Assembly (NCBI GenBank): GCA_937887565.1
Contig: CALABS010000012.1
Coordinates: 57,400 to 121,399, forward strand
Reading direction: 5' to 3'
DNA length: 64,000 nt
From: an uncultured Rhodospirillaceae bacterium
Lineage (GTDB): Bacteria > Pseudomonadota > Alphaproteobacteria > Rhodospirillales > Magnetospirillaceae
Shown here: piece by piece, positions 1 through 16,889 of the stretch
Numbering within the stretch: position 1 is the first letter of the stretch
How the letters are laid out: every line of letters begins with the position of its first letter
Notes under the pieces: model-generated
Told to the model about the DNA's origin: nothing
Seen by the model: the letters and a program-made list of their open reading frames with translations, nothing else
Database searches by the model: none
Program-made: the position numbers and the translations under genes

Positions 1-1
1 C

Positions 2-1054: not shown

Positions 1055-1056
1055 TT

Positions 1057-1818
1057 CTAGATTCTCCGAATGACCTTCGTCTCGATTAGAGCATGAAGAT
1101 GGGCACGCAGTCCTGCGGGGACGTGTCCACCGCTGATCACAACGCCGGCCTCCATATTCTTCTCCAACGCATGCCCAGTCAGGTTAGCGCTGGTCAAGAA
1201 GGCTGAATTGCCGTCGGCAACGGCCACTTTCGCGTGAACCCGTCCTTCGGCGAACGGTGCCGGCCGGTCGGTCCAGACATACAGCGCTGCCGAAGGAACA
1301 CACCGCCGCATTGTAGCAATAGGATCGACGGACAGGCTCCCGCCATGGCTCGTGGAGGTCTCCAACAGAATTCGGATGTCGATGCCGCGAGTGCTTGCAG
1401 CATTCAATGCATCGACCACCGAGGAGACGTCGTATGCAACAAAGCTAACGAGAAAGAGGTCACTTCGCGCGTGATCGATGAGATCCAGCAGCACCTGCTC
1501 CGTGCGGCGGGTGGCGACGAATGGTGTCGTCGGGCCCGTCCAAACTAGTTCGACGCTGTTCTCGCGCTGCGCCTGTTGGCGGGCGAAGGCTGCGCCGACC
1601 AAGATCCCGGCCAGAACATCGCCTGATATTTCCGTCTGTTTCCAAGCGGCGATCAAGCGATCAAGCGCTGCGCGAGCAGCCGGCGTGCTCACGAGCTGAT
1701 GCAGGCTTCCGTATCGTTCGACCGGCATCGAGCCGCGGACACGATCAGCGAGTGCTTCGATCCTCGACGGAGATAACATGGCCACGAGGTCTGTGGCCGC
1801 GACCAATATCGCTTCCAT
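1057..1818 (-). CDS. drmC: DISARM DrmC, phospholipase-D (HKD) family nuclease
   Basis: 253 aa. HKD motif RVHAKVAVADGNSAFLTSANLT near the C-terminus. The start shares one base with the drmB stop (TGATG at 1816-1820). Confidence 0.8.
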   Translation of the reverse strand: MEAILVAATDLVAMLSPSRIEALADRVRGSMPVERYGSLHQLVSTPAARAALDRLIAAWKQTEISGDVLAGILVGAAFARQQAQRENSVELVWTGPTTPFVATRRTEQVLLDLIDHARSDLFLVSFVAYDVSSVVDALNAASTRGIDIRILLETSTSHGGSLSVDPIATMRRCVPSAALYVWTDRPAPFAEGRVHAKVAVADGNSAFLTSANLTGHALEKNMEAGVVISGGHVPAGLRAHLHALIETKVIRRI

Positions 1819-3659
1819 CAGACGGTCTCGAAGAATGCCGCGTCGGGATTTTCAAGGGTGGGTACCACGAGGGAACGATCGAGATGACGATTTCCCCTCT
1901 CACAGGACGTTTCCGAGACGAATGAACAGGCGTGACATGCTGCGCCGTGAAGTGACTGGTCCTTACTCGGATCGTGTTCTGAACAGAGTGGATCGGATGC
2001 GCAAATATGGGCGCGATCCAGCGCTTGGCGCAGAAGTCGCCCAAGATTTTCAGGCTTTCCTAGCTCTACGAGACCTCCCAGAGTGCCATCGGAATCTGCT
2101 GCAGCTGTGTAGATGAGAAATCCGGCTTGATCCCTCCCGTCCTCGACGTCTGCATATATACGCTCCCGAATACTCGCGGCGTTGTAGCCGCACTCCAAGG
2201 CCAGTTCCCGGATCAGCATGTGCGCGAGCGTGTGTAGCATGACATAACGAACGCCCGGGTAACCTTGGCTTGGGTCCAGGTTCCTCTTTTGCCGCCATCC
2301 GCGATGGCCCTGCCGTAACCGAGAGTCGAGAGCCTTCACCGGATCCTTATCCGCCCAAGCCTTCAATGCATTTGCATCGAAGCGAACGAAAATTCCTTCA
2401 CCGTGAACTTGAGTGGCCGGCACCCAGTTCGGTGCTGCGCGTGCGAGCGGGGCCCGTGGGGCTGCCTCATCTCCCGTACCTTCGTCAGGAGACTCGACTC
2501 GTGTGAATCCAAGGAGGGCGTTCACCTCACGAAGCCGCTCCAGCAGCAGAACGCGTGTGATCGCCGCACCGAAGCCCGAGGGCACGCCCACCTTCTTGCT
2601 CATGAAATGCGGATAGTCGGTGGGTGGGTTCTCGGCCGTAAGCACATCCCATTCCGGCCCTTTGAGGTCGCTCTGTTCGACGCCCGGTCCGCCATTGCGA
2701 TGGGTTTCGATTGCGGACCAAATCTGCTCGTCAGTGAACTGCTCGATGCCAGGCAGCTGCGCCGTCTTCTTCAGGGTCTTGACGACGAACGCCACTTCGG
2801 CCGCCGAAGTGACGTCTTCAAAGAACGTCCAGCCATCCGCGACCAGTTGCGCCAGAGGGCTTCCCACCTGTGGGATCGCGAGAACCGAGAGTGTGACCGG
2901 GAACCAGCTATTGGTTGCGCCAAGGAGAATTGCGCGAGGTTCCTCGGTGCAATCGTCCTCAAAGCGATCCACGTGCGGATGTCGCCCTCGGCAGGCTGGA
3001 AGGTTGTCTCGACCTGCCTGACCAAAAGCCTGCGCCATGTTCTTCGATGCGCCGCAGCCATCGCATTTGACCCACAGGTTCTCGGTTTGAAGTGATGCGC
3101 CGCTCTCGAAGAACCTCAGCGTCGCACGACAGGTGCTAGATCCGCCGTGAACGAACCAGTGCCAGGCAAAGTCGTCGAGGTGGCCAGCCCGACACGCCAT
3201 GAGAAAGCGCGCCGGGACGGCATCGGCATCCCTGGCCCTTTGATCGTTATTCGATCCGCGACAGCCCTCATGGACGAAACGCGTCAGCTCGGGGCGATAC
3301 CTGTTTTCCTTCAGCTTGAACAAGCCGGCGTCATACGGCGATAGCAGGCCGCATTTGACGCAGCGCAGCCACCGCGGGAAGGGTTTGACGGGCACGCCGA
3401 TCAGCGCGGCGGCTGAAAATGGGTCTGTGATATCCCTTTCGCCCACGGGCGGCATACGCAATGATTCGACTTGGGGTCCGAGCACGCCCCGGACGTTGGC
3501 GAGCAACCGTGCCTCTTGGATCGGCTGACACCTGTCTTTCTCCCAGCGGTCGATCCCCATCGTGACCACCGACATGTTCGGGAGGTCGATCAAGGCTCCG
3601 GGGCCGTAGGTCCAAAGCAACTGGCTCGGTCGAATTTCTCCTACGGGTGTCCTGCTCAT
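1818..3659 (-). CDS. drmB: DISARM DrmB, DUF1998 (MrfA-like Zn-binding domain) protein
   Basis: C-terminal signature SLHGAACHACSFVSETSCERGNRHLDR is typical of DUF1998. Cys-rich internal clusters (CVKCG, CDGCG). Start chosen at M14 of the track ORF because it gives an ATGA overlap with the drmA stop (3656-3659); 3698 is the alternative. Confidence 0.8.
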   Translation of the reverse strand: MSRTPVGEIRPSQLLWTYGPGALIDLPNMSVVTMGIDRWEKDRCQPIQEARLLANVRGVLGPQVESLRMPPVGERDITDPFSAAALIGVPVKPFPRWLRCVKCGLLSPYDAGLFKLKENRYRPELTRFVHEGCRGSNNDQRARDADAVPARFLMACRAGHLDDFAWHWFVHGGSSTCRATLRFFESGASLQTENLWVKCDGCGASKNMAQAFGQAGRDNLPACRGRHPHVDRFEDDCTEEPRAILLGATNSWFPVTLSVLAIPQVGSPLAQLVADGWTFFEDVTSAAEVAFVVKTLKKTAQLPGIEQFTDEQIWSAIETHRNGGPGVEQSDLKGPEWDVLTAENPPTDYPHFMSKKVGVPSGFGAAITRVLLLERLREVNALLGFTRVESPDEGTGDEAAPRAPLARAAPNWVPATQVHGEGIFVRFDANALKAWADKDPVKALDSRLRQGHRGWRQKRNLDPSQGYPGVRYVMLHTLAHMLIRELALECGYNAASIRERIYADVEDGRDQAGFLIYTAAADSDGTLGGLVELGKPENLGRLLRQALDRAHICASDPLCSEHDPSKDQSLHGAACHACSFVSETSCERGNRHLDRSLVVPTLENPDAAFFETV

Positions 3660-6600
3660 TGCTGATCCTCCTGGGGCTGCGTCACCCGCGGTCTCCAAGT
3701 CGGATCACTCGTCGAACGGTCGTCCTCCATCACGAGCCTGACACCAGGCTCGACTTCGCGCATGGACATCGGGACCGTCCAATCGGTCCAAGGTTTGATG
3801 CCCGGCGCCGAAAGCAGCGGATAGGCGGTGGGGCCTGCGCCGTGCTTCTGGTAGACGAGCGTGCGGCCGCCGACGCCCGCTTCATTGGCCCAATCGTCAG
3901 CGCGGCTCTTCATCTCGGCTTCGGTCAGGGTCTTCTTCCCCGAATCTTCCGTGACTTCCCAGGTGCGAGCGGCGACGGCGCCTATCGTATCCAACATCTC
4001 TTTGCGGCTCGGACTGTTCATGGCGCCAGCGCCGTCGTTTGCGGCGAAGGGATCGTAGGTGTGACGCATGATGGAGAGCATCGCGCCGGTGAGCCCTCGG
4101 TCCAACGCCCGTGGCGAGAACGGGGTGACGGATTGAGCTTCGACGTGCTGATAGAAGGTCGCGTGGTAATGCTCGAAGGTCTCGTAATGCGACAAGTCCC
4201 GAGGCCGCGCCCAGGTCAGCACAGTGGCCACCAGTCCTGGCGGCGTTCGGCCCACACGGCTGGTCGCCTGGATGTACTCGGCCGTTCCCTTGGGTTGGCC
4301 GTTTACGACCATCACTCCGAGACGATTCACGTCAACACCGACCGACAGCATGTTCGTGGCGAGAACGGCATCGATCGGCCGGGCCTCCCCTGGTTTCCTG
4401 TTGGTCACCCATTTGCCTAGTGCCGGATCGAAGGTGCCATCGAAAGGAACCTCGAGCTGATCGAGGTATCTCGGGATGTCCTGACTGGAGACCCGCGATG
4501 TCAGTTCGCTGATTTCCTCGACCCGCCGCTGCGCGAGCCCCGGTCGGTCCACCAGGCTCATATCGACACGGAAGGAACGCGTTTGGACGTCGTCTTCGGC
4601 CAGACGCTTCATCCCTCCGAGTTCTCGTAGCGAGTTGAAGTAGCCGACGAGGGTCATATAGGGGTCGGCCACCGGGCCGAACCGATCGAACAGCGCCTGC
4701 GCTGCGGTGAGGAACGCCGTATAGGTCCTGATCAGCACCGCAGGGCGAGAGCTTCCGGGTGCGCAGATTCCGATGTACCGTCGGCCGGGTTTTTCGCGGA
4801 TGGGCCTCTGGACCGAGAAGAAATTGTCTTCGACGTCCAGGCCGGAAGGCGGAAACACGGAAATGCGGCGCATGAAGACATTGCGCACCTGGTCGTCGGC
4901 CCGCCGCACGGTCGCGGTAGAAGCCACGACCTTGGGACGAACCTTCTCGTCGCCCAGACCCCAGCTGCTCAGCTCGTCGACGGCCGTTTCGTAAAGACCC
5001 ACCATGGTGCCCAGCGGACCGCTGATGAGGTGGAACTCGTCCTGGATGATCAGGTCGGGTGGTCGGATTGCACGGACCGGCTTCACACTGGCGGCCGGAT
5101 ATGCCCCCCTCGTTCGGTGCCCCGTGCCGCAGTCGTGACTCGGCCAGAGCAAACCATGGCGTCCGCATTCCTGCTCGACGCGGCCGAAAAGGTTCCGAAC
5201 CTCGGGACGCCACGCCATCATCGCGAACTTGTCGACGGTCGCGATCATCATCGTCGGCGGGCGGTGATATATTTCCTCGTCGACGACTTTCACGGGAAGC
5301 CCCGGGTGAGGCTGCCCAGTGGATTTCGCCTTCGAGAAATCGCAGCCGCCCAGCTTGTCGCCGCAGTGGATCAGCGTTCGGCCGGCGATCCTGTCGACCT
5401 TGATGTCGCGACCACCGGAGATCTCCGAACCGCACCAAGGGCAGCTGGTCAGCTGCGCAGGCGATGCAATGCCCGCCTTGTTGCGATCGTTGTTTCGAAT
5501 GGCCTCGACAGCCTGGTGAGACGCTTCGGTCGTGCCCGGTGTCACGCGATTGCCGACCCAGAGACCGAGCGTGAAAGGTTCCTTGCCCCAGGTCTTGTCG
5601 TCTGCACGACGGATGACCTCCATCGCGCAGAGCAGCGTCGTCGCCCTCTGGAACTGCTGAAGAGTAAGCAGTCGCAGCGTGTAGCGCATGATGACGGCGA
5701 GACCGCGTGATGCGTCGAGGCCGCCGAGATCATTCTTCAGTCGGCGCATGGCCATGGCGAAGGCCGCCACACCGAGATAGGCCTCGGTTTTGCCACCACC
5801 CGTCGGGAACCAGAGGAGATCGGCGAACGCCTCGACCGGCTTCGTCCGGTCCGGGTGTGTCGGATCGGCGAGCGACGGGATCGACAGGAGCAGGAACGCA
5901 AGCTGGAACGGGCGCCACGATCTGTTCTTCGGCACGTCCAAAGTGGTCACGTCGACGGCTTCGTTCCGTCTGCGCTTCAGAGCGTAGATGCTCCGCACAC
6001 GCTGCATGGCCATGGACCGGTTGGCGAAGCGGAACGCCTCCAGCGCCTTCGGATCGGCGAAGAGCGTACCCATGCCCTCTCGGAGGCGGCGCAGGATCTC
6101 CTCGCAGCGCTGAATGACGTCCTTGCCCGGATCATCGAAGCCGGTGATCTCCGACCCCAGCCGGGCCTTCTGCTCACCGATCCAAACGGCATAGTCGTCG
6201 ACGAGGCACGAGAGAGCGTCGCGCAGCGCGTCTGGCGCCATCTCCGCCAGCCGCGTCATGTCGAGCCAGCCCTCGTCGACCATGCGCCGCATGGCAGGGC
6301 GGTCCCTGGGATCGAGGCCGGGCGTTTCGGTGACGGCGACTTCGTAGCGCGGGATGATCTCCGTTCTGACGCGATGAGCCTTCGTCGGCTCCTCGGGCGT
6401 CGTATCCGCGTGTACGGAGACCCCGTGTCCGACCGCGAACTCCAGCCTGTTGCGATAGATGAGCGCGAGACGGTCGCGTTCCGGGTCGTCGACGACCACT
6501 TCGTTGGAGGGGCGACGCCGAAAGACCGACTTGTCCCCGTGATCTTCGGGGGCCTCTACGGTGATCTCCGGCTGGAACAGCCAGGCGCGGTCCTTGTTGT

Positions 6601-7651
6601 CTTCGGGTTCCAACTGCCCGTTGACGAGGAACAACGTGACCAGGCACTCCCCCTTGTTGTTCGTCCGAACCGTCCCCTGCAGGCGGACATCCGGTTGATC
6701 GGGGTCGGGAGTGGACGGCTTGATCGGCCCATCGACGAGCGGAACCGTGACGACGCCACCGCATGGGATGCGCTGCCAGACCCTGACCTTCACCTCCTCC
6801 TGGTGACCGGTTTGGCGGTTCTTCCGTGTTTTGACGATGTCGTGTTCATCGTTCGGGACCCGCTCGTACCGTCCCCACCGTGCATCGACGGCCAGCTTCC
6901 CGACGTCGGGCGCCACGCAGAAGGTGAGGCCCATGCTGGAGGGAACCAGCGACTGGTTGTTCGTCGTGTCGATCTCGTCGAGCGCGTCGTCTTCCGGCTC
7001 CACCCGGCCCGATGCACTGGCGAACTCGGCGCCGGGCTCGTGGAGTGGCGCCGTCCGTTCATCCTCGAGGTCGCCAGCCTCCTCGGCTGCCGAGGCCGGT
7101 TCGATCCGTGCCGCCTGGTCGTCATCCGGTCGGCGCGGCGCCAGCTTGCCGACCAGGTAGCGGTCGCGGACGCTCATGTCCTTGATCAGCTCATGAGGGC
7201 CACCGGCGGGGCCGAGCAGATCGTCGCGTACGGCGAGTTCCAGGAGGTCGCGGGTGTAGACGACATCGTCGATCAGCGGCACTGCGCCGGGGGCAGAAAC
7301 GCCGAGCAGCGGCAGGATGCGGAGGAACTCGTCCCATGGGAGCCGCGCCACAGGGCCGGTCGGCGCGGTCAGGCCGAGGACGGCGAGCGGCATGGACGGT
7401 TCGACGGCCTGCCAATGGTCGAAATGGATCGTGGCGCTGTCGAGATCCGAACGAATGCGAAGGATCCGACCCACCTCGGTGACGTTGGCGCCATCGTCCA
7501 GAACGACAACCCATTGGCCTTCCTCGATCGCGCCGAGAGTGGTCGACCCCACGTCAATGCGTACAGAATAGCGCGGCGAGTTGGACGTCCTCTTGAGAAT
7601 CCAGGCGCTGACGGATGGTTCGGTGGTCGCGGTCAGATCGGCCATGGTCAA
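3656..7651 (-). CDS. drmA: DISARM DrmA, large superfamily-2 DExH helicase
   Basis: 1331 aa. Motif I WFPTGGGKTEAYLGV, motif II IIQDEFHLISGPLG, motif VI YIQATSRVGR. Sits directly upstream of the DUF1998 gene, the characteristic helicase+DUF1998 pairing. ATGA overlap with the drmMI stop. Confidence 0.85.
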   Translation of the reverse strand: MTMADLTATTEPSVSAWILKRTSNSPRYSVRIDVGSTTLGAIEEGQWVVVLDDGANVTEVGRILRIRSDLDSATIHFDHWQAVEPSMPLAVLGLTAPTGPVARLPWDEFLRILPLLGVSAPGAVPLIDDVVYTRDLLELAVRDDLLGPAGGPHELIKDMSVRDRYLVGKLAPRRPDDDQAARIEPASAAEEAGDLEDERTAPLHEPGAEFASASGRVEPEDDALDEIDTTNNQSLVPSSMGLTFCVAPDVGKLAVDARWGRYERVPNDEHDIVKTRKNRQTGHQEEVKVRVWQRIPCGGVVTVPLVDGPIKPSTPDPDQPDVRLQGTVRTNNKGECLVTLFLVNGQLEPEDNKDRAWLFQPEITVEAPEDHGDKSVFRRRPSNEVVVDDPERDRLALIYRNRLEFAVGHGVSVHADTTPEEPTKAHRVRTEIIPRYEVAVTETPGLDPRDRPAMRRMVDEGWLDMTRLAEMAPDALRDALSCLVDDYAVWIGEQKARLGSEITGFDDPGKDVIQRCEEILRRLREGMGTLFADPKALEAFRFANRSMAMQRVRSIYALKRRRNEAVDVTTLDVPKNRSWRPFQLAFLLLSIPSLADPTHPDRTKPVEAFADLLWFPTGGGKTEAYLGVAAFAMAMRRLKNDLGGLDASRGLAVIMRYTLRLLTLQQFQRATTLLCAMEVIRRADDKTWGKEPFTLGLWVGNRVTPGTTEASHQAVEAIRNNDRNKAGIASPAQLTSCPWCGSEISGGRDIKVDRIAGRTLIHCGDKLGGCDFSKAKSTGQPHPGLPVKVVDEEIYHRPPTMMIATVDKFAMMAWRPEVRNLFGRVEQECGRHGLLWPSHDCGTGHRTRGAYPAASVKPVRAIRPPDLIIQDEFHLISGPLGTMVGLYETAVDELSSWGLGDEKVRPKVVASTATVRRADDQVRNVFMRRISVFPPSGLDVEDNFFSVQRPIREKPGRRYIGICAPGSSRPAVLIRTYTAFLTAAQALFDRFGPVADPYMTLVGYFNSLRELGGMKRLAEDDVQTRSFRVDMSLVDRPGLAQRRVEEISELTSRVSSQDIPRYLDQLEVPFDGTFDPALGKWVTNRKPGEARPIDAVLATNMLSVGVDVNRLGVMVVNGQPKGTAEYIQATSRVGRTPPGLVATVLTWARPRDLSHYETFEHYHATFYQHVEAQSVTPFSPRALDRGLTGAMLSIMRHTYDPFAANDGAGAMNSPSRKEMLDTIGAVAARTWEVTEDSGKKTLTEAEMKSRADDWANEAGVGGRTLVYQKHGAGPTAYPLLSAPGIKPWTDWTVPMSMREVEPGVRLVMEDDRSTSDPTWRPRVTQPQEDQQ

Positions 7652-10600
7652 TCGCCCCCCTCAATGGTCATTGGAAGAATGTCGTCGAGGTCGAGCGTCG
7701 GCTCGGACGCAGAAGTAGCGCGAGATCTGCGTCCACGCGCCTTAGCTGGGCCTGCGGTCCCGCCATGTAGACCCTGGTCGACCTCTTCCTGGTAACGCAG
7801 ACGATTGAGTTCAGCTAACCGACGCAGCACTTCTAGACGCGCCGACTCTGAGATCGTGAAGCGGGTTCGGTCGTTCTCGGGAAGGTAGGAAACCTCATGG
7901 AAACCATGACCGAGATCCACATCATCCCATCCGTATGCTTGAACAACGGCAACGTCGATTTGATAGTGCAATTCTCGAAGCTCTTTGACCTCTTCGTCTT
8001 GGTCCTCCGCATCGTGCAGTCGGTTGAATACGCCCGTCAATCCAATCTGCCTTGACACACTTATTCTGCGACGGAGATCTATAATACTCCTCACAATTTC
8101 TCTTTGCGAAACGCCTAGAGCCGGAGCTGGAAATGTTTCGAATGAGTCGCCCGGGGTATATAGAAGCCGTGTCTCAAGGGTAGAAGCGTGCTTCCTAACC
8201 CATACTTCGTGGATTTGGCTGAGCAAAGCACCAAGTAGATTTAGATCCTCAGATGCAAATACAGTTATCCGGTCAGACCATATTATGTTCGATGGCACCA
8301 AAGATGGCGCCAGATACTTAGAGACTCGCGATAGGCATATAACATTCTGCAGGGCAGACGCATCTTCTCGCCACCCTTCGACATGCCTTTCGAAATGGTG
8401 ACCTTGCCCCACGGCGTGATAAAGGCCGTGGCGCTCATTCCAATGCAGCCACCACCTCTGCATGATATTCCGGTATGCTCGTTGCTTGCTCTGTTCGAGG
8501 CGTTTTGGGTACACCTCTCGCTCAACGTGCTTCCAAGGCAGCGTGTATGTTTTTGCGCGCTCTTCGGGCCAGTCCCAAAAGTTGACGACCCATCTGCTCG
8601 GACACTGCTCAGGGTCCGAATTCAAGTCCTCGCCGTTCATGTAAGGAAATAGAACTTCAGCGTTCTTCGGGTCAGCATCAAGCATGTCGGCCGCTTCCCT
8701 AGGGGTAAGCGTGAAGCCGATCGCGTTAAGCTTCGATCCCTCAAATGCAATTCCCTTATTGGCGCGAAGCTGCTTAGGGCTCCACTCTTCTTGATCCGAA
8801 AGGAACGCGGAAATGTACCTGACAGGCTGTCCAGAGAGTGTTCGCTGTCCCCGCCAATCCCCCTTGTACACATGTACCTGACTGGTAACTACGGCCGCGG
8901 ATCCAGGCCAGGGTTCGTTTGGATATGCAGAATGTACTGCAGACCCATTGTGCAATAGCCATTCTAGACCGCACTGGCGGGTATCTCCCTCGGAGATAGT
9001 ATTTGTTGCAAGTAGTCCGAAATTCCCCCCTTCTCTCAACAAAGAAAATGCGCGCCGGAAAAAGTGCGCCGAGAGGTCTACATTCCTGTTGGTTCCTGCG
9101 TGAATATTCACCAGCCATGTGTTGAATGCTGGGCCCAAGATCGTACTGATTCTCTTGCCGCCTAGAAACGGTGGGTTGCCGATAAACGCGTCAAAGCCCG
9201 CACTTTTGCGAAGAAAAACTTCTGGGAATTCTAGGGGCCAATGGAAAGGCCGTCGCACCGCTCCGTCGGGCGCATCTTTGGCCAAATCATTCTGAGCGTC
9301 ATGCAGGAGTCGTCTTTTTGCCGGTGTGTCGCCATCTGCGGCGGCGTCGGCGAAAGCCGCCAACGTCTCGATCCGTGCGGTGCGCTCTCCCGAACGCTGT
9401 TCTGCCAGAACGATGCCGATGAAAGCATCGGCGATGAGCGTCGGCAGCGCCAGTTCACCGCGCGATTGCGCATCAAGTGCTGCCATCGCCCCGACATCAT
9501 GAATATCGCGAATTGGGATCTCCCGCAGACGAGCGCGGAGTTCGAGCGCCTTGTCGACCGCTGATCGAATGGTCCGTCCAAACAATCGGAGCTGAGCCTT
9601 CCCCTTCGGATTCATGTCGAGCTCGACCAGCTGACCGAGATCGTGAATCCCGAGAAGGCTGTCACCACTACGCAGATTGTGGTCGAGGAAGCCGAAGGGC
9701 CGTCCCTTCGACATGGTGGTGAGCCAGAGCGACAGCTTGGCCAGCTCCACGGCCAGAGGGTTCTTGTCTACGCCGTAGAGGCATCGCTCCGCCACGAGGC
9801 GACGGGCGACGATCGCGCGTTCCTCCGCGTCCTGTGAGAGGGGATCGAAGCCCTCGGCGGTATCGCCTTCGACGATGCGCCCCTCGCTGTCGATCTGCTT
9901 GCCGGTCTTCTCCGTTGCCGACCAAGCCTCGACCAGACGATCCGAGAGCCATCGGCACGCCTGCACGAGGAAGGCTCCAGACCCCATGGCAGGATCGCAG
10001 ATCTTCAGGTCGAGCAGCTCCTCGGCGCTTTTCAGCTCCCAGTCCTCGGGCGCTTTGCCTTCGGCCGGGCCGCGGTAGGCGACTGGAGTCAGCGTTTCCG
10101 CGACGATCTTCTCCGTCAGGCTCTTCGGCGTGTAGTGCGTGCCGCTCTCGCGCCGGTCGGCGCCGAGCACGACGACAAAGGCGCCCTTGTGGTGGACGAG
10201 CGGATAGCCCCAGGGATCGGTCCGCAGGAGGGACGCGGAGGGCAGGATGCGATCGCGCAGACCGATATCGCCGCGGCAAACGGTGAGGAGGCGCGCGGCG
10301 AGACGATCGTCGGCTGGCCGCTCGAGGGCGTTACGGATGGCGGACTCTGAGCGCTCGCTCCGTTCCTTCAGCAGTTCAGCAACCCTCGCCGGACCATCCA
10401 GGCGCGCCGACTCCAACTCGCCAAGCGTCACGCGCGGGCTCTTCGCCTTCGCGCCGCTGTCGAGTTCCAGCGTGACATCGTCGACGCGCTTCACCGTGCG
10501 TTCGAGGAGGCCCTCGTAGACGTGCCCGATCTGCTCCACGTCGAGCGCGCGGTAGGACAGCGTGCGGCCTTCGAAAGTCTGGATCGCTTCCAACAACAGC

Positions 10601-11769
10601 AGAACGGTGCGGTCGTCGATCGGCAGCGGTTCGGCTGGATCGCTCCGCCAGCTCGTGCCCTTCTTTCGCCCTTCGAGGAACGGATAGCGATCGGGGTCGA
10701 ACAACGAACCACCGAGCGCTGGAAGGCGCAGCGTCGGATGATCGATACCACCATACACGCCACGAAACAGGGCGAGCAGCCGCGACCAGGCGGATCGGCG
10801 GCGCTCGAGGATCTCTTCGGAATCCGCACGCAACTGCATTCGCAGGCTGGAGATGGCGTAGAAGGAGTCGTAGCGGGGATCGCCGAGCAGTAGCAGGGCG
10901 CGTTCCTCGGCCGATAGTAGGAAGACGAGCCGCATCATGACCGTTAGACCGGCCTCGTAGAGTTCTCGCGGATCGACATCGCGCAGGAGCTCGCGATTGC
11001 GATCCTGGTCGGCGCGGTCGAGCGCCTGGACGAGCACTTCGACGGCGCGCCGGACCTGTTCTCCGAGCGCCTCGGTCACGTCGTCCTGGTGCTTCAAGGA
11101 CCTCTCATAGAGCGCCGGTAGCTTTCCTTCGTCGGGTCCGAAGAAGCGGCGGATGCCTAAAAGGCTGACGAAGGCGCGCAGCGTTTCTGGTTCCTGGCCC
11201 CAGAGCCGCGCATACCAGCTCGCGAAGCCTGCCACGACGCCGACGGGCGCGTGGACGAGCATCCAGCGCTCGCCATTGGTGACGATGCCGGTGGGGCATC
11301 CTGTCGACCTGAGCAGAGCGACCATCCGGTCGGCCGGGGTGATCGCGAGGCCATCGAAACGGCGCGTCGCATCCAGATCGGTGTCGGGCTCGTAGATGTG
11401 GATGAGCAGAAGCGGTTCGTCGGAGTTCGTTGGATTTACGACCGCCAGATCGGGCGCGACCGTGACTCCGTGTTCGGGCATCGAGACAGTCAGCTTCTCA
11501 GGCAGTCTCGCGCCCCCGCGCAGCACCGTCTCATCCATTTCCAGCGCGGTGACCAGCACGTCGTCGATCCAGGCCGCGTGCAGCGCTGGAAGGTCGAGGT
11601 CGTCCATGTCGACGGCATCGCGCCATTCCTCATAGGTCCGACGAAGCCGCTGAGGCCGCCCGGAAGGCAGGGCTTCAAGGCCTTGCGGGAAGACTTCCCG
11701 CAGCACGGGCACCGCCAGAAAGGGCCCAGAGACTTCGATGAGGTTCAGCCACTCGTGATCGTTGCTCAT
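7648..11769 (-). CDS. drmMI: DISARM DrmMI, large N6-adenine DNA methyltransferase (Eco57I/type IIG-like)
   Basis: 1373 aa. SAM motif I ICDPAMGSGAFLVQA and catalytic motif IV FDAFIGNPPFLGG. ATGA overlap with the drmD stop (11766-11769). Confidence 0.8.
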   Translation of the reverse strand: MSNDHEWLNLIEVSGPFLAVPVLREVFPQGLEALPSGRPQRLRRTYEEWRDAVDMDDLDLPALHAAWIDDVLVTALEMDETVLRGGARLPEKLTVSMPEHGVTVAPDLAVVNPTNSDEPLLLIHIYEPDTDLDATRRFDGLAITPADRMVALLRSTGCPTGIVTNGERWMLVHAPVGVVAGFASWYARLWGQEPETLRAFVSLLGIRRFFGPDEGKLPALYERSLKHQDDVTEALGEQVRRAVEVLVQALDRADQDRNRELLRDVDPRELYEAGLTVMMRLVFLLSAEERALLLLGDPRYDSFYAISSLRMQLRADSEEILERRRSAWSRLLALFRGVYGGIDHPTLRLPALGGSLFDPDRYPFLEGRKKGTSWRSDPAEPLPIDDRTVLLLLEAIQTFEGRTLSYRALDVEQIGHVYEGLLERTVKRVDDVTLELDSGAKAKSPRVTLGELESARLDGPARVAELLKERSERSESAIRNALERPADDRLAARLLTVCRGDIGLRDRILPSASLLRTDPWGYPLVHHKGAFVVVLGADRRESGTHYTPKSLTEKIVAETLTPVAYRGPAEGKAPEDWELKSAEELLDLKICDPAMGSGAFLVQACRWLSDRLVEAWSATEKTGKQIDSEGRIVEGDTAEGFDPLSQDAEERAIVARRLVAERCLYGVDKNPLAVELAKLSLWLTTMSKGRPFGFLDHNLRSGDSLLGIHDLGQLVELDMNPKGKAQLRLFGRTIRSAVDKALELRARLREIPIRDIHDVGAMAALDAQSRGELALPTLIADAFIGIVLAEQRSGERTARIETLAAFADAAADGDTPAKRRLLHDAQNDLAKDAPDGAVRRPFHWPLEFPEVFLRKSAGFDAFIGNPPFLGGKRISTILGPAFNTWLVNIHAGTNRNVDLSAHFFRRAFSLLREGGNFGLLATNTISEGDTRQCGLEWLLHNGSAVHSAYPNEPWPGSAAVVTSQVHVYKGDWRGQRTLSGQPVRYISAFLSDQEEWSPKQLRANKGIAFEGSKLNAIGFTLTPREAADMLDADPKNAEVLFPYMNGEDLNSDPEQCPSRWVVNFWDWPEERAKTYTLPWKHVEREVYPKRLEQSKQRAYRNIMQRWWLHWNERHGLYHAVGQGHHFERHVEGWREDASALQNVICLSRVSKYLAPSLVPSNIIWSDRITVFASEDLNLLGALLSQIHEVWVRKHASTLETRLLYTPGDSFETFPAPALGVSQREIVRSIIDLRRRISVSRQIGLTGVFNRLHDAEDQDEEVKELRELHYQIDVAVVQAYGWDDVDLGHGFHEVSYLPENDRTRFTISESARLEVLRRLAELNRLRYQEEVDQGLHGGTAGPAKARGRRSRATSASEPTLDLDDILPMTIEGGD

Positions 11770-14700
11770 CCGCGCTTCTCCGTCGCGAGGGAGTTCGGAA
11801 CCAGCAGCACCACGGCCACGGGGAAGGTATGCTCGACGGCATTGGAGTGCCGTTCCTCGATCGCGCGTAGCTCTTGCTCGCGCTCCTTCGGGATCCGGGC
11901 CAGGCGTGCTTCGAGGGCCGCTCGGTCACGCTTGAGCTGAGTGCGTTCGTCCTCGGAGAAAAGAGAGAGCTGCACGGGTTGCTGTTCCGCCGCGATCTCG
12001 GTCTTCAGCGCTCGTTCGAGATCGTCCAGGACTTGGCGGATGTCCTCGGCCTCCTTGCGCTTCCGGGTCTCGATCGTGTTCACGAGGAAGCGTAGCCGGT
12101 CTTTCGAGCGTGCCTCGACGGCTGCCAGAACGGAATCACGCTGTTTGTCGAAGCGCGTCCTCAAGGCCTCAAACGTCGCATCCGGCAGGGCCGCGGGGTG
12201 CGACTCCTCCAGCCATCGTCGGACCTCCGTGACCCGTTCCTCCCGCCGGAAACCGGCATCGCGCAGATAGCCGCCAGCCTCCGTGAGCTCCTCGTGCAGA
12301 CGATGATGGTTCCCGCCGGTCACGACGAGCCGCGACATCACCACCACGGCCGGTCCCTCGATCCGCCCATCCGGAAGCGAGCGCACGGTCACGCGGTGAA
12401 GCTTCTTCACGTCGTCACGGGCCCAGATCTCCGCGCGCAGGAGCCGCAGACTCATCTGGACGAGCCGGTGGTTCAGGTGGACGAGGACCACGTCGTCACG
12501 GCCCTTGGCGACCTCGTGGTCGAAGGTGATCGGGCGAACCTTCTGCGTGTAGGGGTGTTCTAGACCCTCGAGGCATCGGGACCAGGAACCCGAGAGCGGC
12601 GGCATTCGGAAAACCGTGCCATCTGGTGCACCGGCCAGAGAAACGGGCTCCAAGTCGGGTTTGTCCGCAAGACGCAACGCCGTGCGTACCGCCCGCTCGA
12701 TGTGGTCGGGCACGAGGCTCTGTTCGTGCCGGGTCTCGTTCAGCCGCTCATGGAGTTTGGCCACACGTTCGCGAAGGTCGCGCTCCGCCTTCACGAAGCG
12801 GCGGGATTTCTCCATCCGGGCTTCGGCTTGTCTCGTGTCGAGATCGCGGCGGCGCCCCTCGAGGAGGTCTGGCAGTTGAGGCGCGATGACCGGGTTCACG
12901 CTCCCCATGTCGGCGCGCATCGCATCCAGTTTGCGAAGCGCACGGAGGATATCGTCACCGTGGCCTCCTTCAGGATCCACCGGATGCCAAATGACGACCT
13001 CGCTCGCGCGTTGACCATGACGGTCGATGCGCCCGTTCCGCTGTTCCATCACATTCGGGTTGTACGGAATTTCGAGATGGATCATCAGATGACAGTGGTT
13101 CTGGAGATCGATGCCCTCGGAGGCGGCATCGGTCGCCAGCAGTATCCTCACCGGGGATTCCGAAGGGTTGGCCTGGAACGCGGCTTTCACGCCCTCGCGT
13201 TCTTTCGGGTCCATGCCACCATAGATGAGAGCCAATCGCTCGCCCCCGAAGCCGTGGGATGCGAGGATCTCCTGCATCCATTGCTGAGTGGCGCGATACT
13301 CGGTGAACAGGATCACCCGCTCGTTCGTCCACCTGTCACCGTCCTTCAGGTGACTGGCCAGCCAATCCAGCACGGCGGTGGCCTTGGCGTCGGTTCGACG
13401 AGCCGCCTGCTGGGCCCAGGACCGCAACCGGTCGAGCATCCGGCGTTCTTCGTCGGTCGGTGGCCGGACGTGCTTGCCCGCTTCCTCGATCGCTTCAGCC
13501 TCGGCGGCATCCCGCTGGGCGTCGTCTGCGTAGTCTTCCTCGGTCTTCGCTATCGCCCGCCGAAGGATGCGGTCATCGAATTTCTTCTGGCTGCGATCGC
13601 TAGCCGCCCGACCTTCGATCGTCGCGATATGCCGCTCCAGTGTCGCTGCAAAGGCTGCAGGTGACGATGACAGGCGCTTGCGCAGCAACTGGTGCACGAA
13701 GTGATCGACGGCCCGCTCTCCATCAGCACCGCCTTCGCGGCTCTTGATGTATGCTTCCAGCTGCCGCCGGGCATCCCTCTCGTCTTCGCTATACTCCACC
13801 GGCAGCGCTTCGAGCCGTCGCTCGGGGTAAATTCGCTTGCCATTCGCATCGACCAGATCGCTCTTCAGCCGACGGACCATCACCCGGGCGAGTTGGGGAT
13901 CACTTGGGAGGACGTTTCTCGCGAACCGCTGATCATCAAGGAGTTCGAGGAGTGCGGTGAAGGATTCGGTGTAACCGTCGTGCGGCGTGGCTGTGAGAAA
14001 CAGTTTGTGCTGGAAGTGTGGCGCGGCCAGACGAACCAGACGGGTCCTGAGGCTTTCGACAGCGTAGCGGCCGACGGTCGGCGCGACGTTGTGAGCCTCG
14101 TCGATGATCAGCAGGTCGAACTTCCTGGGATGGCTGACGTGCGGGGGCAATGCGTCCCGTAGAAGACGCAAGCCTTCACCCTGCTTGGCCCAGTCCATCG
14201 ACGTGATGAGACGGGGAAAAGACGTCCAGGGATTCGCGTGCAGGCCTCGCTCGCGGCGCAGACGCTTGACGTATTCCGTATCGACGATCCGGAACTCCAG
14301 CCCGAACTTCTCCTGCATCTCGACGCGCCATTTTTCCTGCAAAGAGGCAGGGCAAAGCACGAGAACGGTACGGGCACGGTGCCGCAACAGCATCTCTTGA
14401 ACGACGAGTCCCGCCTCGATGGTCTTCCCGAGGCCGACGTCGTCGGCGATCAGCAGATTGGTGCGCGCCATGTCGATCGCGCGCACGAGCGGATCCAGCT
14501 GGTAATCCTCGATGCTGACGCCACTGCGGAATGGCGCCTGCAGATAGCCGCGATCCGCGTTCGTCGCTGCGCCCCAAACCACCGCATCCAAGAAGGCTTG
14601 AAGCGTGGATGGGTCATCCAGCCCGGTCATGCGCGGTAGTCCGGCCCGCTCGATCACATGCGCTCCGGGCTCCAGCTCCCAGAGCACTTCGATCTCTTCA

Positions 14701-14885
14701 CCCAGCGCATCCTCGTCGATTGAGGCCAGCCGAACGAGATGCCGCTTAGGAAGTCCAGGGGCAACCGAACCGCCTTCGACCTCGGAGACGATCCATTGTC
14801 GGCGCCGAGCCTCGACCAGCTGGCCCGGCTCGGGCGCAGTGGCGTGAGCCACCTCGGCCACTATTTCATCTGCGGTCATCGGCAT
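11766..14885 (-). CDS. drmD: DISARM DrmD, SNF2-family helicase/ATPase
   Basis: 1039 aa. Motif I LIADDVGLGKTIEAG, motif II LLIIDEAHNV, motif V LLATDAASEGIDLQ, motif VI YNPNVMEQRNGRIDRHGQ. Confidence 0.85.
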   Translation of the reverse strand: MPMTADEIVAEVAHATAPEPGQLVEARRRQWIVSEVEGGSVAPGLPKRHLVRLASIDEDALGEEIEVLWELEPGAHVIERAGLPRMTGLDDPSTLQAFLDAVVWGAATNADRGYLQAPFRSGVSIEDYQLDPLVRAIDMARTNLLIADDVGLGKTIEAGLVVQEMLLRHRARTVLVLCPASLQEKWRVEMQEKFGLEFRIVDTEYVKRLRRERGLHANPWTSFPRLITSMDWAKQGEGLRLLRDALPPHVSHPRKFDLLIIDEAHNVAPTVGRYAVESLRTRLVRLAAPHFQHKLFLTATPHDGYTESFTALLELLDDQRFARNVLPSDPQLARVMVRRLKSDLVDANGKRIYPERRLEALPVEYSEDERDARRQLEAYIKSREGGADGERAVDHFVHQLLRKRLSSSPAAFAATLERHIATIEGRAASDRSQKKFDDRILRRAIAKTEEDYADDAQRDAAEAEAIEEAGKHVRPPTDEERRMLDRLRSWAQQAARRTDAKATAVLDWLASHLKDGDRWTNERVILFTEYRATQQWMQEILASHGFGGERLALIYGGMDPKEREGVKAAFQANPSESPVRILLATDAASEGIDLQNHCHLMIHLEIPYNPNVMEQRNGRIDRHGQRASEVVIWHPVDPEGGHGDDILRALRKLDAMRADMGSVNPVIAPQLPDLLEGRRRDLDTRQAEARMEKSRRFVKAERDLRERVAKLHERLNETRHEQSLVPDHIERAVRTALRLADKPDLEPVSLAGAPDGTVFRMPPLSGSWSRCLEGLEHPYTQKVRPITFDHEVAKGRDDVVLVHLNHRLVQMSLRLLRAEIWARDDVKKLHRVTVRSLPDGRIEGPAVVVMSRLVVTGGNHHRLHEELTEAGGYLRDAGFRREERVTEVRRWLEESHPAALPDATFEALRTRFDKQRDSVLAAVEARSKDRLRFLVNTIETRKRKEAEDIRQVLDDLERALKTEIAAEQQPVQLSLFSEDERTQLKRDRAALEARLARIPKEREQELRAIEERHSNAVEHTFPVAVVLLVPNSLATEKRG

Positions 14886-15316
14886 AGATGGGCCCCGTTC
14901 CTTCTGCGAGCGTCGACAAATTCGGCGATGCGGTTTGCGGCTTGGATGGCGTCTTCGTGTTCCCAGATCCGGACCGTCTCCCAGCCGAGAGCAGCCAGCC
15001 GCTGATCAGTATCGGCATCCCTAAATCGATTGGTTTCGATCTTCTCCCGCCAGAAATCGGCGTTGCTCTTCGGCCAGGAAGCGTGCTCGGGGCAGCCGTG
15101 CCAAAAGCATCCGTCGACGAACACGGCCAATCTCGCGCTAGGGAAAACGATATCGGCAACGCGCCTGGGCTTAGTCAGGAGCGGAACGTGGAGGCGATAA
15201 CGCAGCCCCTTGGCATGCAGAGCCTTGCGGAGATTTATCTCCGCACGCGTGCCCTTCTGTCGCACGCGAGCCATGCGACGACTGGCGTCATGCGACGAGG
15301 GACTTACGCGCGTCAT
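14876..15316 (-). CDS. vsr: Very-short-patch repair endonuclease
   Basis: 146 aa with SRRMARVRQKGTRAEINLRKALHAKGLRYRLH and FVDGCFWHGCPEH, hallmark Vsr motifs. Overlaps the 3' end of dcm (15288-15316) and the 5' end of drmD (14876-14885). Confidence 0.85.
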   Translation of the reverse strand: MTRVSPSSHDASRRMARVRQKGTRAEINLRKALHAKGLRYRLHVPLLTKPRRVADIVFPSARLAVFVDGCFWHGCPEHASWPKSNADFWREKIETNRFRDADTDQRLAALGWETVRIWEHEDAIQAANRIAEFVDARRRNGAHLCR

Positions 15317-16385: not shown

Positions 16386-16644
16386 CAGCTTTCTCTCCCC
16401 CCGCATTCGCCCCCTTCTGTGAATCGGCCTCGGCCGCCTCGCCTTCCTTTTGATCGTCCGATGCTTTCCCGTGCCTCACCCAGTCATCAACTTCGTCGGT
16501 TTTGAACTTCCAAAGCCTCCCGACCTTGTGGGCCGGCATGTCCTTCTTCGCGATCCAGCCGTAAACCGTGTCTTTGCTGACACCGAGATATTCAGCGATC
16601 TCCTCCACGGAGACCCAGCGATCGGACATGGTGCGGCCCTTCAT
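16378..16644 (-). CDS. Small helix-turn-helix DNA-binding protein (excisionase/AlpA/MerR-like HTH)
   Basis: VSVEEIAEYLGVSKDTVYGWIAKKDMPAHKVGRLWKFKTDEVDDWV matches the excisionase-family HTH pattern, with an acidic/Gly-rich tail. The 3' end overlaps the dcm start by 8 nt. Start uncertain (16644 or 16629). Confidence 0.6.
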   Translation of the reverse strand: MKGRTMSDRWVSVEEIAEYLGVSKDTVYGWIAKKDMPAHKVGRLWKFKTDEVDDWVRHGKASDDQKEGEAAEADSQKGANAGGEKADG

Positions 16645-16889
16645 CAGCCAACCTGTTTCAAGGCTCAAGCATCGCACCCGGTCGGTCAAAAGTAAACCAA
16701 ATATAAGCCCGTTTCATCGGGTCTAATCGGATTTGGTCGGATAAAGAAGGCGGGGGGCGCGAGGCTGAGCCGATCAAGGGGTACCTCGACCTCTTGGTCC
16801 GAAGATCGGTTCTGACGCAGAGATATGCGAGAAATGAGCGCGCCCATTCCCCACGGCGCGCCTCGTGGCCGCTCCCGGCGCCATAAGGC

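What the first reader, a model, noticed from the sequence alone, without database searches (positions are those of the whole stretch)
1057..14885. Complete five-gene DISARM class 1 anti-phage system (drmD-drmMI-drmA-drmB-drmC)
Seen in sequence: five co-directional minus-strand genes with no intergenic space. There are ATGA overlaps at 11766-11769, 7648-7651 and 3656-3659, and a TGATG overlap at 1816-1820. In order they encode: an SNF2 ATPase (GLGKT, DEAH, QRNGRIDRHGQ); a 1373-aa N6-adenine methyltransferase (DPAMGSGAFL, NPPF); a 1331-aa DExH helicase (GGGKTEAY, DEFH, QATSRVGR); a protein with the DUF1998 C-terminal Zn signature (HGAACHACSF...SCERGN); and a single-HKD phospholipase-D nuclease (HAKVAVADGNSAFLTSANL). 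Established knowledge: this gene content, with a helicase+DUF1998+PLD core plus an SNF2 helicase and an adenine methylase, defines class 1 DISARM (Ofir et al. 2018). That system acts like a restriction-modification system against diverse dsDNA phages. Inference: the locus is intact (no frameshifts or internal stops) and probably functional. Its mechanism is still poorly resolved, which makes it the most notable system in the window.
Basis: partly seen in the sequence, partly recalled or inferred. Interest (0 to 1): 0.9.

Follow-up and report, generated by a model that had tools for sequence, protein, structure and literature searches.

The report
Eight-gene class 1 DISARM operon

Summary
The five minus-strand genes exist exactly as described. 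They are DrmD, DrmMI, DrmA, DrmB and DrmC. Four pass NCBI's curated DISARM equivalog cut-offs (NCBIfam has no DrmMI model; PADLOC's DrmMI model scores 1842 bits). DrmA and DrmB match the cryo-EM chains of the Serratia sp. SCBI class 1 system along their whole length. One detail is wrong: the 7648-7651 junction reads TTGA, not ATGA.

The system is larger than reported. Three overlapping genes sit directly upstream on the same strand: an HTH protein (16378-16629), a C5-cytosine methylase whose best match is DrmMII (15288-16385), and a Vsr mismatch endonuclease (14876-15316). This order is conserved in every related locus where the fetched flank reaches far enough, except that five gammaproteobacterial-type loci lack Vsr. 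A conserved promoter-like leader lies upstream of the HTH gene. The real unit is therefore about 15.7 kb (1057-16742). It is a low-GC island and is 100% identical to a public metagenome contig.

The C-terminal half of DrmMI, which holds the target-recognition region, is a swapped module. The rest of the cassette is 95-99% identical in DNA to its closest relative, Sphingomonas ursincola, but this part does not align at all.

Verdict: a new member of a known, experimentally characterised kind. Interest is low to moderate.

The parts
16630..16742 (-). Conserved leader with a promoter-like element: TTTACT at 16696-16691, a 17-nt spacer ending in TGc, and GATGCT at 16673-16668. A GAAGGG ribosome-binding site lies before the HTH start.
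   Evidence: Homology with related cassettes ends at about 16742. GGTTTAC and GTGnnAT are conserved across 24 loci from alpha- and gammaproteobacteria. That this is a promoter or operator is inferred, not shown.
16378..16629 (-). HTH gene (83 aa; excisionase/MerR-type HTH_17, MAD1-like). First gene of the operon and a probable transcriptional regulator.
   Evidence: Pfam HTH_17 at 61.7 bits. NCBIfam MAD1 at 81.1 bits against a cut-off of 80, and TIGR01764 at 68.9 bits. The ATG at 16629 is conserved in relatives, while the upstream ATG at 16644 is not. The gene overlaps the drmMII start by 8 nt.
15288..16385 (-). drmMII: C5-cytosine DNA methyltransferase (365 aa).
   Evidence: Pfam DNA_methylase at 183 bits. 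The best PADLOC model is DrmMII PDLC02651 at 308 bits, covering 2-365 of 371 profile positions. Motifs I (FCGAGG), IV (PCQ), VI (ENV), VIII (QNRRR) and X (GNAV) are all present. It is syntenic in related loci.
14876..15316 (-). vsr: very-short-patch T:G mismatch endonuclease (146 aa).
   Evidence: NCBIfam TIGR00632 at 115 bits against 97.85. It aligns to E. coli Vsr (1cw0) with the catalytic Asp and GCFWH conserved. It overlaps drmMII by 29 nt, and its stop overlaps the drmD start (ATGA if drmD starts at 14879).
11766..14885 (-). drmD: SNF2/RapA-like ATPase (1039 aa, or 1037 aa if it starts at 14879).
   Evidence: NCBIfam DISARM_DrmD equivalog at 1376 bits against 610. Pfam SNF2-rel_dom plus Helicase_C. 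The nearest solved structure is RapA.
7648..11769 (-). drmMI: MmeI/Eco57I-like N6-adenine methyltransferase (1373 aa).
   Evidence: PADLOC DrmMI at 1842 bits, end to end. Pfam Eco57I, MmeI_Mtase and MmeI_TRD. Motif I DPAMGSGAFL at residue 592 and motif IV NPPF at residue 865.
7869..9219 (-). Swapped, hypervariable C-terminal module of DrmMI (about residues 850-1300), which includes the target-recognition domain.
   Evidence: Identity to the closest cassettes falls from 90-100% in residues 1-800 to 10-60% here. DNA homology to L001 breaks between 7698 and 9167. GC drops to 0.51-0.56. Identity in this module is decoupled from cassette relatedness across about 75 loci with a DrmMI hit (of the 80 fetched). 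The best database relative is only 63% identical.
3656..7645 (-). drmA: SF2 (YprA-family) DExH helicase (1329 aa from the ATG at 7645; the longest ORF starts at the TTG at 7651).
   Evidence: NCBIfam DISARM_DrmAS at 1465 bits against 950. PDB 7s9v_A at 1774 bits over residues 34-1327. The tested Serratia residues K803, R810, R1294 and V1296 are conserved.
6950..7135 (-). Region of DrmA that corresponds to the autoinhibitory trigger loop (about residues 171-232; acidic and low in complexity).
   Evidence: It aligns with Serratia DrmA residues 176-232. Length and acidic character are similar, but sequence conservation is weak. The loop is defined in PMC9142583.
1818..3659 (-). drmB: DUF1998/MZB zinc-binding partner of DrmA (613 aa).
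   Evidence: Pfam MZB at 45.5 bits against 24.2. NCBIfam DrmB_fam at 761 bits against 240. PDB 7s9v_B at 1035 bits over residues 2-611. A strong AGGAGGA ribosome-binding site lies 6 nt before the ATG at 3659.
1057..1818 (-). drmC: single-HKD phospholipase-D-family nuclease (253 aa).
   Evidence: NCBIfam DISARM_DrmC_I at 257 bits against 133. Pfam PLDc_2 at 62.7 bits. PADLOC DrmC at 366 bits, covering 1-252 of 253 profile positions. The HxK(x)4D motif is at residue 195.

Best explanation
The locus is an intact class 1 DISARM anti-phage system of the Serratia type, meaning it also carries the cytosine methylase DrmMII. It is organised as one eight-gene operon: HTH, drmMII, vsr, drmD, drmMI, drmA, drmB, drmC. 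It occupies window positions 16742 to 1057 on the minus strand and is a horizontally acquired, low-GC cassette.

Proposed mechanism:
1. Transcription starts from a conserved promoter-like leader upstream of the HTH gene. The HTH protein probably regulates the operon. This step is inferred.
2. DrmMI marks host DNA with m6A at an asymmetric motif set by its C-terminal recognition module. DrmMII marks host DNA with 5mC. Both are inferred by homology, and the motifs are unknown. The DrmMI motif probably differs from Serratia's ACACAG, because the recognition module is not conserved.
3. Vsr repairs the T:G mismatches that arise when 5mC deaminates at DrmMII sites. This is the canonical role of a Dcm-Vsr pair and is inferred.
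4. DrmA and DrmB form a helicase complex that is autoinhibited by the acidic trigger loop of DrmA. A 5' single-stranded overhang on incoming unmethylated DNA displaces the loop and switches on ATP-driven translocation, and methylated DNA damps the ATPase. This was shown for the Serratia orthologue. It is inferred here from 62-73% identity and conservation of the tested residues.
5. DrmD (an SNF2 ATPase) and DrmC (a PLD nuclease) add to interference. DrmC is dispensable in the systems tested so far.

Among otherwise near-identical cassettes, the C-terminal half of DrmMI has been exchanged by recombination. This most likely changes methylation specificity.
For: Curated models pass their cut-offs for DrmD, DrmA, DrmB, DrmC, Vsr and Dcm, and PADLOC gives DrmMI 1842 bits and DrmMII 308 bits. 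DrmA and DrmB align end to end with the cryo-EM chains 7s9v_A and 7s9v_B, with K803, R810, R1294 and V1296 conserved and a trigger-loop counterpart present. All eight genes overlap or abut: 8, 29, 4 or 10, and 4 nt overlaps, then a 2-nt gap, then 4 and 1 nt overlaps. The order HTH-Dcm-Vsr-DrmD-DrmMI-DrmA-DrmB-DrmC recurs in every related locus whose flank reaches far enough, from alpha- to gammaproteobacteria, and on a Microvirga plasmid. The conserved leader is shown. Cassette GC is 0.51-0.66 against about 0.70 for the host, and homology with relatives ends at about 1067 and about 16742. The DrmMI mosaic is shown. Function of the Serratia orthologue is reported in bioRxiv 10.1101/2021.12.28.474362 and PMC9142583.
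Against: Nothing here measures activity, so methylation motifs, expression and protection are all inferred. The consensus scan found no sigma-70 promoter at the leader and no terminator after drmC. The promoter call rests on cross-locus conservation of a weak match. Vsr is absent from five gammaproteobacterial-type loci, and the HTH gene was not detected in some loci, so these two genes are accessory rather than core. In Serratia the system tolerated deletion of individual genes and methylated its sites only partially, so the restriction-modification-like self/non-self logic is incomplete even in the reference system.
Confidence: 0.9

Rival explanations
1. There are two adjacent but independent units. 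One is a stand-alone HTH-Dcm-Vsr methylation and repair module (an orphan or type II-like methylase). The other is a five-gene DISARM system. They happen to be neighbours and are not one system.
For: Dcm-Vsr pairs exist outside defence systems, as in the E. coli dcm-vsr pair (established knowledge). Five related loci have Dcm without Vsr, and some loci show no HTH hit. The canonical definition of class 1 lists only five genes (introduction of the preprint).
Against: The vsr stop overlaps the drmD start, and there is no intergenic space anywhere in the eight genes. Synteny holds across loci whose DrmA is only 63% identical. The only conserved non-coding leader lies upstream of the HTH gene. In Serratia, DrmMII contributes to defence and its 5mC damps the DrmAB ATPase.
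Confidence: 0.08
2. The large methylase is a genuine type IIG/IIL (MmeI-like) restriction-modification enzyme that cuts DNA itself. The helicases would then be unrelated neighbours.
For: The PADLOC REase_MTase_IIG model PDLC03618 matches at 1649 bits, end to end. RefSeq names the Microvirga orthologue 'type IIL restriction-modification enzyme MmeI'. There are weak hits to Pfam MmeI_N (22 bits, below the cut-off of 27) and to the MmeI structure 5hr4.
Against: The DrmMI model scores higher, at 1842 bits. The protein is embedded between curated DrmD and DrmA equivalogs. Across 73 orthologues the N-terminal domain keeps an acidic PD/PE and an invariant TNGERW, but it has no conserved (D/E)xK, and the position where that would fall is H, Q, M or F. 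The hit to MmeI covers only the TRD.
Confidence: 0.03
3. The locus is a decaying or silent relic that no longer defends the cell.
For: No expression or activity data exist. No consensus promoter or terminator was found.
Against: There are no frameshifts or internal stops in 15.6 kb. All catalytic motifs and tested functional residues are intact. Orthologues are full length. Identical copies lie on 14 independent metagenome contigs.
Confidence: 0.05

Closest known systems
Class 1 DISARM of Serratia sp. SCBI (drmMII, drmD, drmMI, drmA, drmB, drmC; Aparicio-Maldonado et al. 2021 preprint; Bravo et al. 2022; PDB 7S9V and 7S9W)
   Same: It has the same six defence genes. DrmA (1774 bits) and DrmB (1035 bits) align end to end with the solved chains. 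A trigger-loop counterpart and the DNA-binding and methyl-sensing residues are conserved.
   Different: This cassette adds a vsr gene between drmMII and drmD and an HTH gene at the front. The Serratia work moved 'six genes' and never mentions Vsr, and the gammaproteobacterial-type loci L063, L064, L065, L072 and L077 lack vsr. The DrmMI recognition module differs, so its motif is probably not ACACAG. The host is an alphaproteobacterium-like organism with about 70% GC.
Class 2 DISARM of Bacillus paralicheniformis (drmE, drmA, drmB, drmC, drmMII; Ofir et al. 2018, as summarised)
   Same: It shares the DrmA, DrmB and DrmC core and a C5-cytosine methylase.
   Different: Class 2 lacks DrmD and DrmMI and may carry DrmE. 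Here DrmD and DrmMI are present, and none of the operon or flanking ORFs scanned (not every ORF in the window) matched a DrmE model.
ARMADA types I and II, and Druantia III (YprA-family relatives; bioRxiv 10.1101/2025.09.15.676423; PMC13463889)
   Same: They share an SNF2/RapA-like ATPase, a PglX/MmeI-like adenine methylase and a YprA-family helicase with DUF1998. A Vsr-type nuclease fold also appears in ARMADA.
   Different: In ARMADA and Druantia the helicase and DUF1998 are fused and carry C-terminal Vsr or PLD nuclease domains, and ARMADA II adds the UvrD-like ArmD. Here DrmA and DrmB are separate genes, the nuclease is a separate PLD protein, and Vsr is a small stand-alone protein paired with Dcm.
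MmeI-family type IIL enzymes and BREX PglX
   Same: They share the Eco57I/MmeI methyltransferase core followed by a C-terminal TRD, and modular variation of specificity.
   Different: Similarity to the MmeI structure is weak (25.7 bits, TRD only) and similarity to PglX is far below cut-off (34 bits against 500). No conserved nuclease triad was found.
E. coli dcm-vsr overlapping gene pair
   Same: A C5 methylase gene overlaps a downstream Vsr endonuclease gene, here by 29 nt. The Vsr catalytic Asp and the FWH wedge are conserved.
   Different: Here the pair is embedded in a defence operon and is translationally linked to drmD.

Membership tests
DISARM class 1 | DrmA: SF2 DExH helicase of the DISARM clade | tested here: met
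   NCBIfam NF038325 equivalog at 1465 bits against a cut-off of 950. PDB 7s9v_A at 1774 bits, full length. Motifs GGGKTEAY, DEFH and QATSRVGR are present.
DISARM class 1 | DrmB: a separate DUF1998/MZB zinc-binding protein encoded immediately after DrmA | tested here: met
   Pfam PF09369 at 45.5 bits against 24.2. NF038324 at 761 bits against 240. 7s9v_B at 1035 bits. There is an ATGA overlap with drmA.
DISARM class 1 | DrmC: PLD-family (HKD) protein | tested here: met
   NF038319 DISARM_DrmC_I at 257 bits against 133. PF13091 at 62.7 bits against 27. The motif is H195xK(x)4D.
DISARM class 1 | DrmD: SNF2-like helicase preceding the core genes | tested here: met
   NF038317 equivalog at 1376 bits against 610. 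PF00176 plus PF00271.
DISARM class 1 | DrmMI: N6-adenine DNA methyltransferase between DrmD and DrmA | tested here: met
   PADLOC DrmMI PDLC02643 at 1842 bits, covering 8-1340 of 1347 profile positions. Pfam Eco57I at 70.5 bits. Motif I and NPPF are present. NCBIfam has no DrmMI model.
DISARM class 1 | Co-directional operon in the order drmD-drmMI-drmA-drmB-drmC | tested here: met
   The order, strand and junctions are shown. The same order is found in the related loci whose fetched DNA covers all five genes (most of the 80).
DISARM class 1 | Autoinhibitory trigger loop and DNA-contact and methyl-sensor residues of DrmA (Bravo et al. 2022) | tested here: met
   An acidic loop counterpart aligns to Serratia residues 176-232. 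K803, R810, R1294 and V1296 are conserved.
DISARM class 1 | Protects against phage and conjugation; methylates host DNA | not testable with these tools
   This needs plaque and conjugation assays and a methylome. It has been shown only for the Serratia orthologue.
Class 1 DISARM with accessory DrmMII (Serratia sub-type) | C5-cytosine methyltransferase in the same operon | tested here: met
   PF00145 at 183 bits. The best PADLOC model is DrmMII at 308 bits. All C5-MTase motifs are present. The gene is syntenic and overlapping.
DISARM class 2 | DrmABC plus DrmMII (with or without DrmE), and no DrmD or DrmMI | tested here: not met
   DrmD and DrmMI are present. None of the operon or flanking ORFs scanned (not every ORF in the window) matched a DrmE model.
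ARMADA / Druantia III | Single fused YprA helicase-DUF1998 protein with C-terminal Vsr-type or PLD nuclease domains (plus ArmD or DruH) | tested here: not met
   The helicase and DUF1998 are separate genes and match the DrmA and DrmB equivalogs.
Type IIG/IIL restriction-modification enzyme (MmeI-like) | N-terminal PD-(D/E)xK endonuclease catalytic triad | tested here: inconclusive
   MmeI_N scores 22 bits, below the cut-off of 27. In 73 orthologues an acidic PD/PE is conserved, but no (D/E)xK is. No structure-based test was run.
Dcm-Vsr very-short-patch repair pair | Vsr endonuclease gene overlapping the 3' end of a C5-MTase gene, with catalytic residues intact | tested here: met
   TIGR00632 at 115 bits against 97.85. 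The alignment to 1cw0 shows the catalytic Asp and GCFWH conserved. The overlap is 29 nt.

The most novel reading that the evidence does not exclude
The stand-alone Vsr-type nuclease may be more than a housekeeping partner of DrmMII. It is translationally coupled to drmD and conserved in most alphaproteobacterial cassettes, so it could be a second nuclease arm of DISARM. This would parallel the Vsr-type effector domain fused to the helicase in ARMADA, and it could help explain why the PLD nuclease DrmC is dispensable. Separately, and much more likely (about 0.6), the swapped C-terminal module of DrmMI reprograms the m6A motif between otherwise near-identical cassettes.
Probability: 0.05. Interest if true: 0.6.

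Novelty: new member of a known kind. Interest (0 to 1): 0.25.

Why it matters
The finding mainly matters as a correct annotation: an intact, probably active class 1 DISARM island in a high-GC alphaproteobacterium-like genome. Three details could be useful to the DISARM field. First, the natural operon in this clade has eight genes. It includes a leading HTH gene with a conserved leader and a Vsr gene, and neither is mentioned in the Serratia study, which describes transplanting six genes. Second, near-identical cassettes that differ only in the DrmMI C-terminal module form a natural swap series. That series could be used to map how DrmMI chooses its motif and to test whether DISARM defence depends on that motif. 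Third, public annotation calls DrmMI an 'MmeI restriction-modification enzyme', which can cause such loci to be misclassified.

Tried and rejected
- Island boundaries: no tRNA genes occur anywhere in the window. A search of 1-18300 for direct and inverted repeats gave only short, low-identity pairs consistent with chance. No integrase was found next to the cassette.
- Promoters and terminators: the consensus scan found fewer sites than in shuffled sequence, with none at the operon ends. The promoter proposal therefore rests only on cross-locus conservation.
- Plasmid vehicle: a near-identity search found just one plasmid with the cassette, Microvirga terrae pR24_2, at 80% identity over 49% of the query. 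No plasmid origin is shown for this copy.
- Source of the DrmMI C-terminal module: the database search gave at best 63% identity, and most hits were fragments with the same Eco57I plus MmeI_TRD domains. It gave no evidence that the module came from a non-DISARM enzyme.
- Nuclease motif in the DrmMI N-terminus: no conserved (D/E)xK was found. This is inconclusive without a structure.
- ARMADA, Dpd, BREX and Druantia assignments: rejected on model scores and on the split DrmA/DrmB architecture.
- Host organism: I did not try to name it beyond noting 100% identity to metagenome contig ERZ724087 NODE_208 and a left flank 91% identical to Sphingomonas ursincola.

Full report
**Observation.** None has an internal stop, and every quoted motif is present at a single position. 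Three of the four junctions are as described: ATGA at 11766-11769 and at 3656-3659, and TGATG at 1816-1820. The fourth, at 7648-7651, reads TTGA on the coding strand. drmA therefore starts either at that TTG or at the ATG at 7645, 2 nt after the drmMI stop. I prefer the ATG for two reasons. Gene calls on identical metagenome contigs give a 1329-aa DrmA, and related loci show the same 2-nt spacing. For drmB, the ATG at 3659 is preceded by AGGAGGA at a 6-nt spacing, so it is the real start rather than the longer TTG ORF.

**Identity of the five genes.** PADLOC models give DrmD 1463 bits, DrmMI 1842, DrmA 1520, DrmB 270 and DrmC 366. One PADLOC model labelled DrmA scores 1590 bits on the SNF2 protein; it is evidently a mislabelled DrmD model. 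Pfam gives SNF2-rel_dom plus Helicase_C; Eco57I, MmeI_Mtase and MmeI_TRD; Helicase_C; MZB/DUF1998 (45.5 bits against 24.2); and PLDc_2 (62.7 bits against 27). NCBI's curated equivalogs all pass their cut-offs: DrmD 1376 against 610, DrmA 1465 against 950, DrmB 761 against 240 and DrmC 257 against 133. DrmA and DrmB align end to end with chains A and B of PDB 7S9V, the Serratia sp. SCBI DrmAB cryo-EM structure, at 1774 and 1035 bits.

Three more genes lie directly upstream on the same strand:
- A Vsr endonuclease at 14876-15316. It scores 115 bits against TIGR00632 (cut-off 97.85), and its alignment to E. coli Vsr (1cw0) conserves the catalytic Asp and GCFWH.
- A C5-cytosine methyltransferase at 15288-16385. 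It scores 183 bits against PF00145, its best PADLOC model is DrmMII at 308 bits, and motifs I, IV, VI, VIII and X are all present.
- A small HTH_17/excisionase-type protein at 16378-16629 that just passes the MAD1 equivalog, at 81.1 bits against 80.

These genes overlap one another and drmD. The HTH gene and drmMII overlap by 8 nt, and drmMII and vsr by 29 nt. The vsr stop overlaps the drmD start, by ATGA if drmD starts at 14879, as called on contig L081.

**Synteny and boundaries.** The order HTH-Dcm-Vsr-DrmD-DrmMI-DrmA-DrmB-DrmC recurs wherever the 10-kb flank reaches far enough. This includes Massilia and Pseudomonas loci whose DrmA is only 63% identical, and plasmid pR24_2 of Microvirga terrae, where RefSeq annotates the genes by name. 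Five gammaproteobacterial-type loci have Dcm directly before DrmD, with no room for vsr. That fits the 'six genes' transplanted from Serratia. Homology among cassettes ends just after the drmC stop (about 1067) and about 100 nt upstream of the HTH gene (about 16742). That leader contains the only conserved non-coding block: TTTACT, a 17-nt spacer ending in TGc, then GATGCT, followed by a GAAGGG ribosome-binding site. The conserved HTH start is the ATG at 16629. The cassette has a GC fraction of 0.51-0.66, against about 0.70 for the rest of the window. It sits between methylmalonyl-CoA mutase genes and a region with a peptidase gene and GTA-like or prophage tail genes. The window is 100% identical over 21,769 nt to ENA contig ERZ724087 NODE_208.

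**Mosaic DrmMI.** In the closest relative, Sphingomonas ursincola (L001), DNA identity is 97% for drmC, 98% for drmB, 96% for drmA, 96% for drmD, 99% for dcm and 99% for the HTH gene. The C-terminal part of drmMI does not align at all. At the protein level, DrmMI residues 1-800 are 90-100% identical to the nearest cassettes, while residues 850-1300 are only 10-60% identical. Across about 75 loci with a DrmMI hit (of the 80 fetched), N-terminal identity tracks cassette relatedness (96% down to 63%). The C-terminal module falls into discrete similarity classes that do not depend on relatedness, and the TRD part never exceeds 49%. The segment coincides with a GC trough of 0.51-0.56. A search of 5.8 billion proteins found no relative of the module above 63% identity. 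The simplest reading is that the specificity-determining half of DrmMI has been replaced by recombination, as is known for other MmeI-like and type I enzymes. I infer from this that the m6A motif differs from Serratia's ACACAG.

**Mechanism.** I rely on the Serratia work for the mechanism. There, DrmMI makes m6A at ACACAG and DrmMII makes 5mC at MTCGAK. Defence is broad and also acts against conjugation, drmC is dispensable, and losing the methylases causes no autoimmunity. DrmAB is autoinhibited by a trigger loop (DrmA residues 176-232) and is activated by 5' single-stranded overhangs. Its ATPase is reduced by 5mC-containing DNA, and K803, R810, R1294 and V1296 are functionally important. In the window's DrmA, all four of those residues are conserved and an acidic loop of similar length occupies the trigger-loop position. 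A recent survey describes the class 1 DrmA architecture and distinguishes DISARM, with its split DrmA and DrmB and a separate PLD nuclease, from ARMADA and Druantia, which have a fused helicase-DUF1998 protein with Vsr or PLD domains. This locus has the DISARM arrangement. The roles I assign to Vsr (repair of deaminated 5mC at DrmMII sites) and to the HTH protein (operon regulator) are inferences from family knowledge and gene position.

**Rivals.**
- Two independent neighbouring units. This is unlikely given the overlaps, the deep synteny and the single conserved leader.
- A genuine type IIG restriction enzyme. A type IIG model does match DrmMI end to end at 1649 bits, and RefSeq uses the MmeI name. 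Against this, the DrmMI model scores higher, the genomic context is DISARM, and 73 orthologues share no (D/E)xK triad in the N-terminal domain.
- A dead relic. Intact motifs, full-length orthologues and 14 identical contigs argue against it.

**Verdict.** It belongs to a sub-type that has already been characterised genetically and structurally, and whose core genes drmD, drmA and drmC RefSeq names (DrmB is labelled only as a DUF1998 protein and DrmMI as MmeI). It is a new member of a known kind. The modest points of interest are the conserved HTH-DrmMII-Vsr leader module and the swapped DrmMI specificity module.

Noticed in passing
L086 (Microvirga terrae plasmid pR24_2) 17975-20389; also L014 about 7404-9980 and L019 7526-9979: Some otherwise syntenic cassettes carry two extra genes between drmMI and drmA: an 'ATP-binding protein' of about 470-530 aa and an O-methyltransferase of about 331 aa. 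The window lacks them.
   Followed up: partly
window 16890-17921 (-): A DUF5677-family ORF with low GC (0.55-0.57) lies between the cassette and the host mutase genes. The Pfam hit is 26.9 bits, just under the cut-off of 27.1. It is absent from all 80 related loci but present on the identical metagenome contigs. It may be separate cargo of unknown function.
   Followed up: partly
window 1-1056, and L081 20716-24122: The left flank holds small ORFs and the 3' part of a Peptidase_M15 gene. On contig L081 this continues beyond the window edge into DUF6127, a 426-aa gene and a protein with Phage-tail_3 plus Rcc01698_C domains, which looks like GTA-like or prophage tail genes. This flank is 91% identical in DNA to S. 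ursincola, so the cassette sits at the same site in both genomes.
   Followed up: partly
window 18134-22332 (-): Two methylmalonyl-CoA mutase genes (the large subunit carries a B12-binding domain) at host-like GC mark the right edge of the island. The 1204-aa ORF listed at 18134-21748 is an over-extension of the 731-aa gene.
   Followed up: no
window 11766-14885 and 7648-11769 (database labels): There are two annotation pitfalls. PADLOC model PDLC02572 is labelled DrmA but matches DrmD end to end. RefSeq labels the DrmMI orthologue 'type IIL restriction-modification enzyme MmeI'.
   Followed up: yes
window 16378-16629 (-): The leading HTH protein just passes NCBI's equivalog for MAD1 of the methylation-associated defence system MADS (81.1 bits against 80). 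The same small HTH family may therefore head two different methylation-based defence operons.
   Followed up: no
L001-L013 compared with the window: DrmA is 90-97% identical across different alphaproteobacterial orders and families (Sphingomonas, Methylobacterium, Chelativorans, Prosthecomicrobium, Caulobacter, Paracoccus). This points to recent horizontal spread of the cassette.
   Followed up: partly
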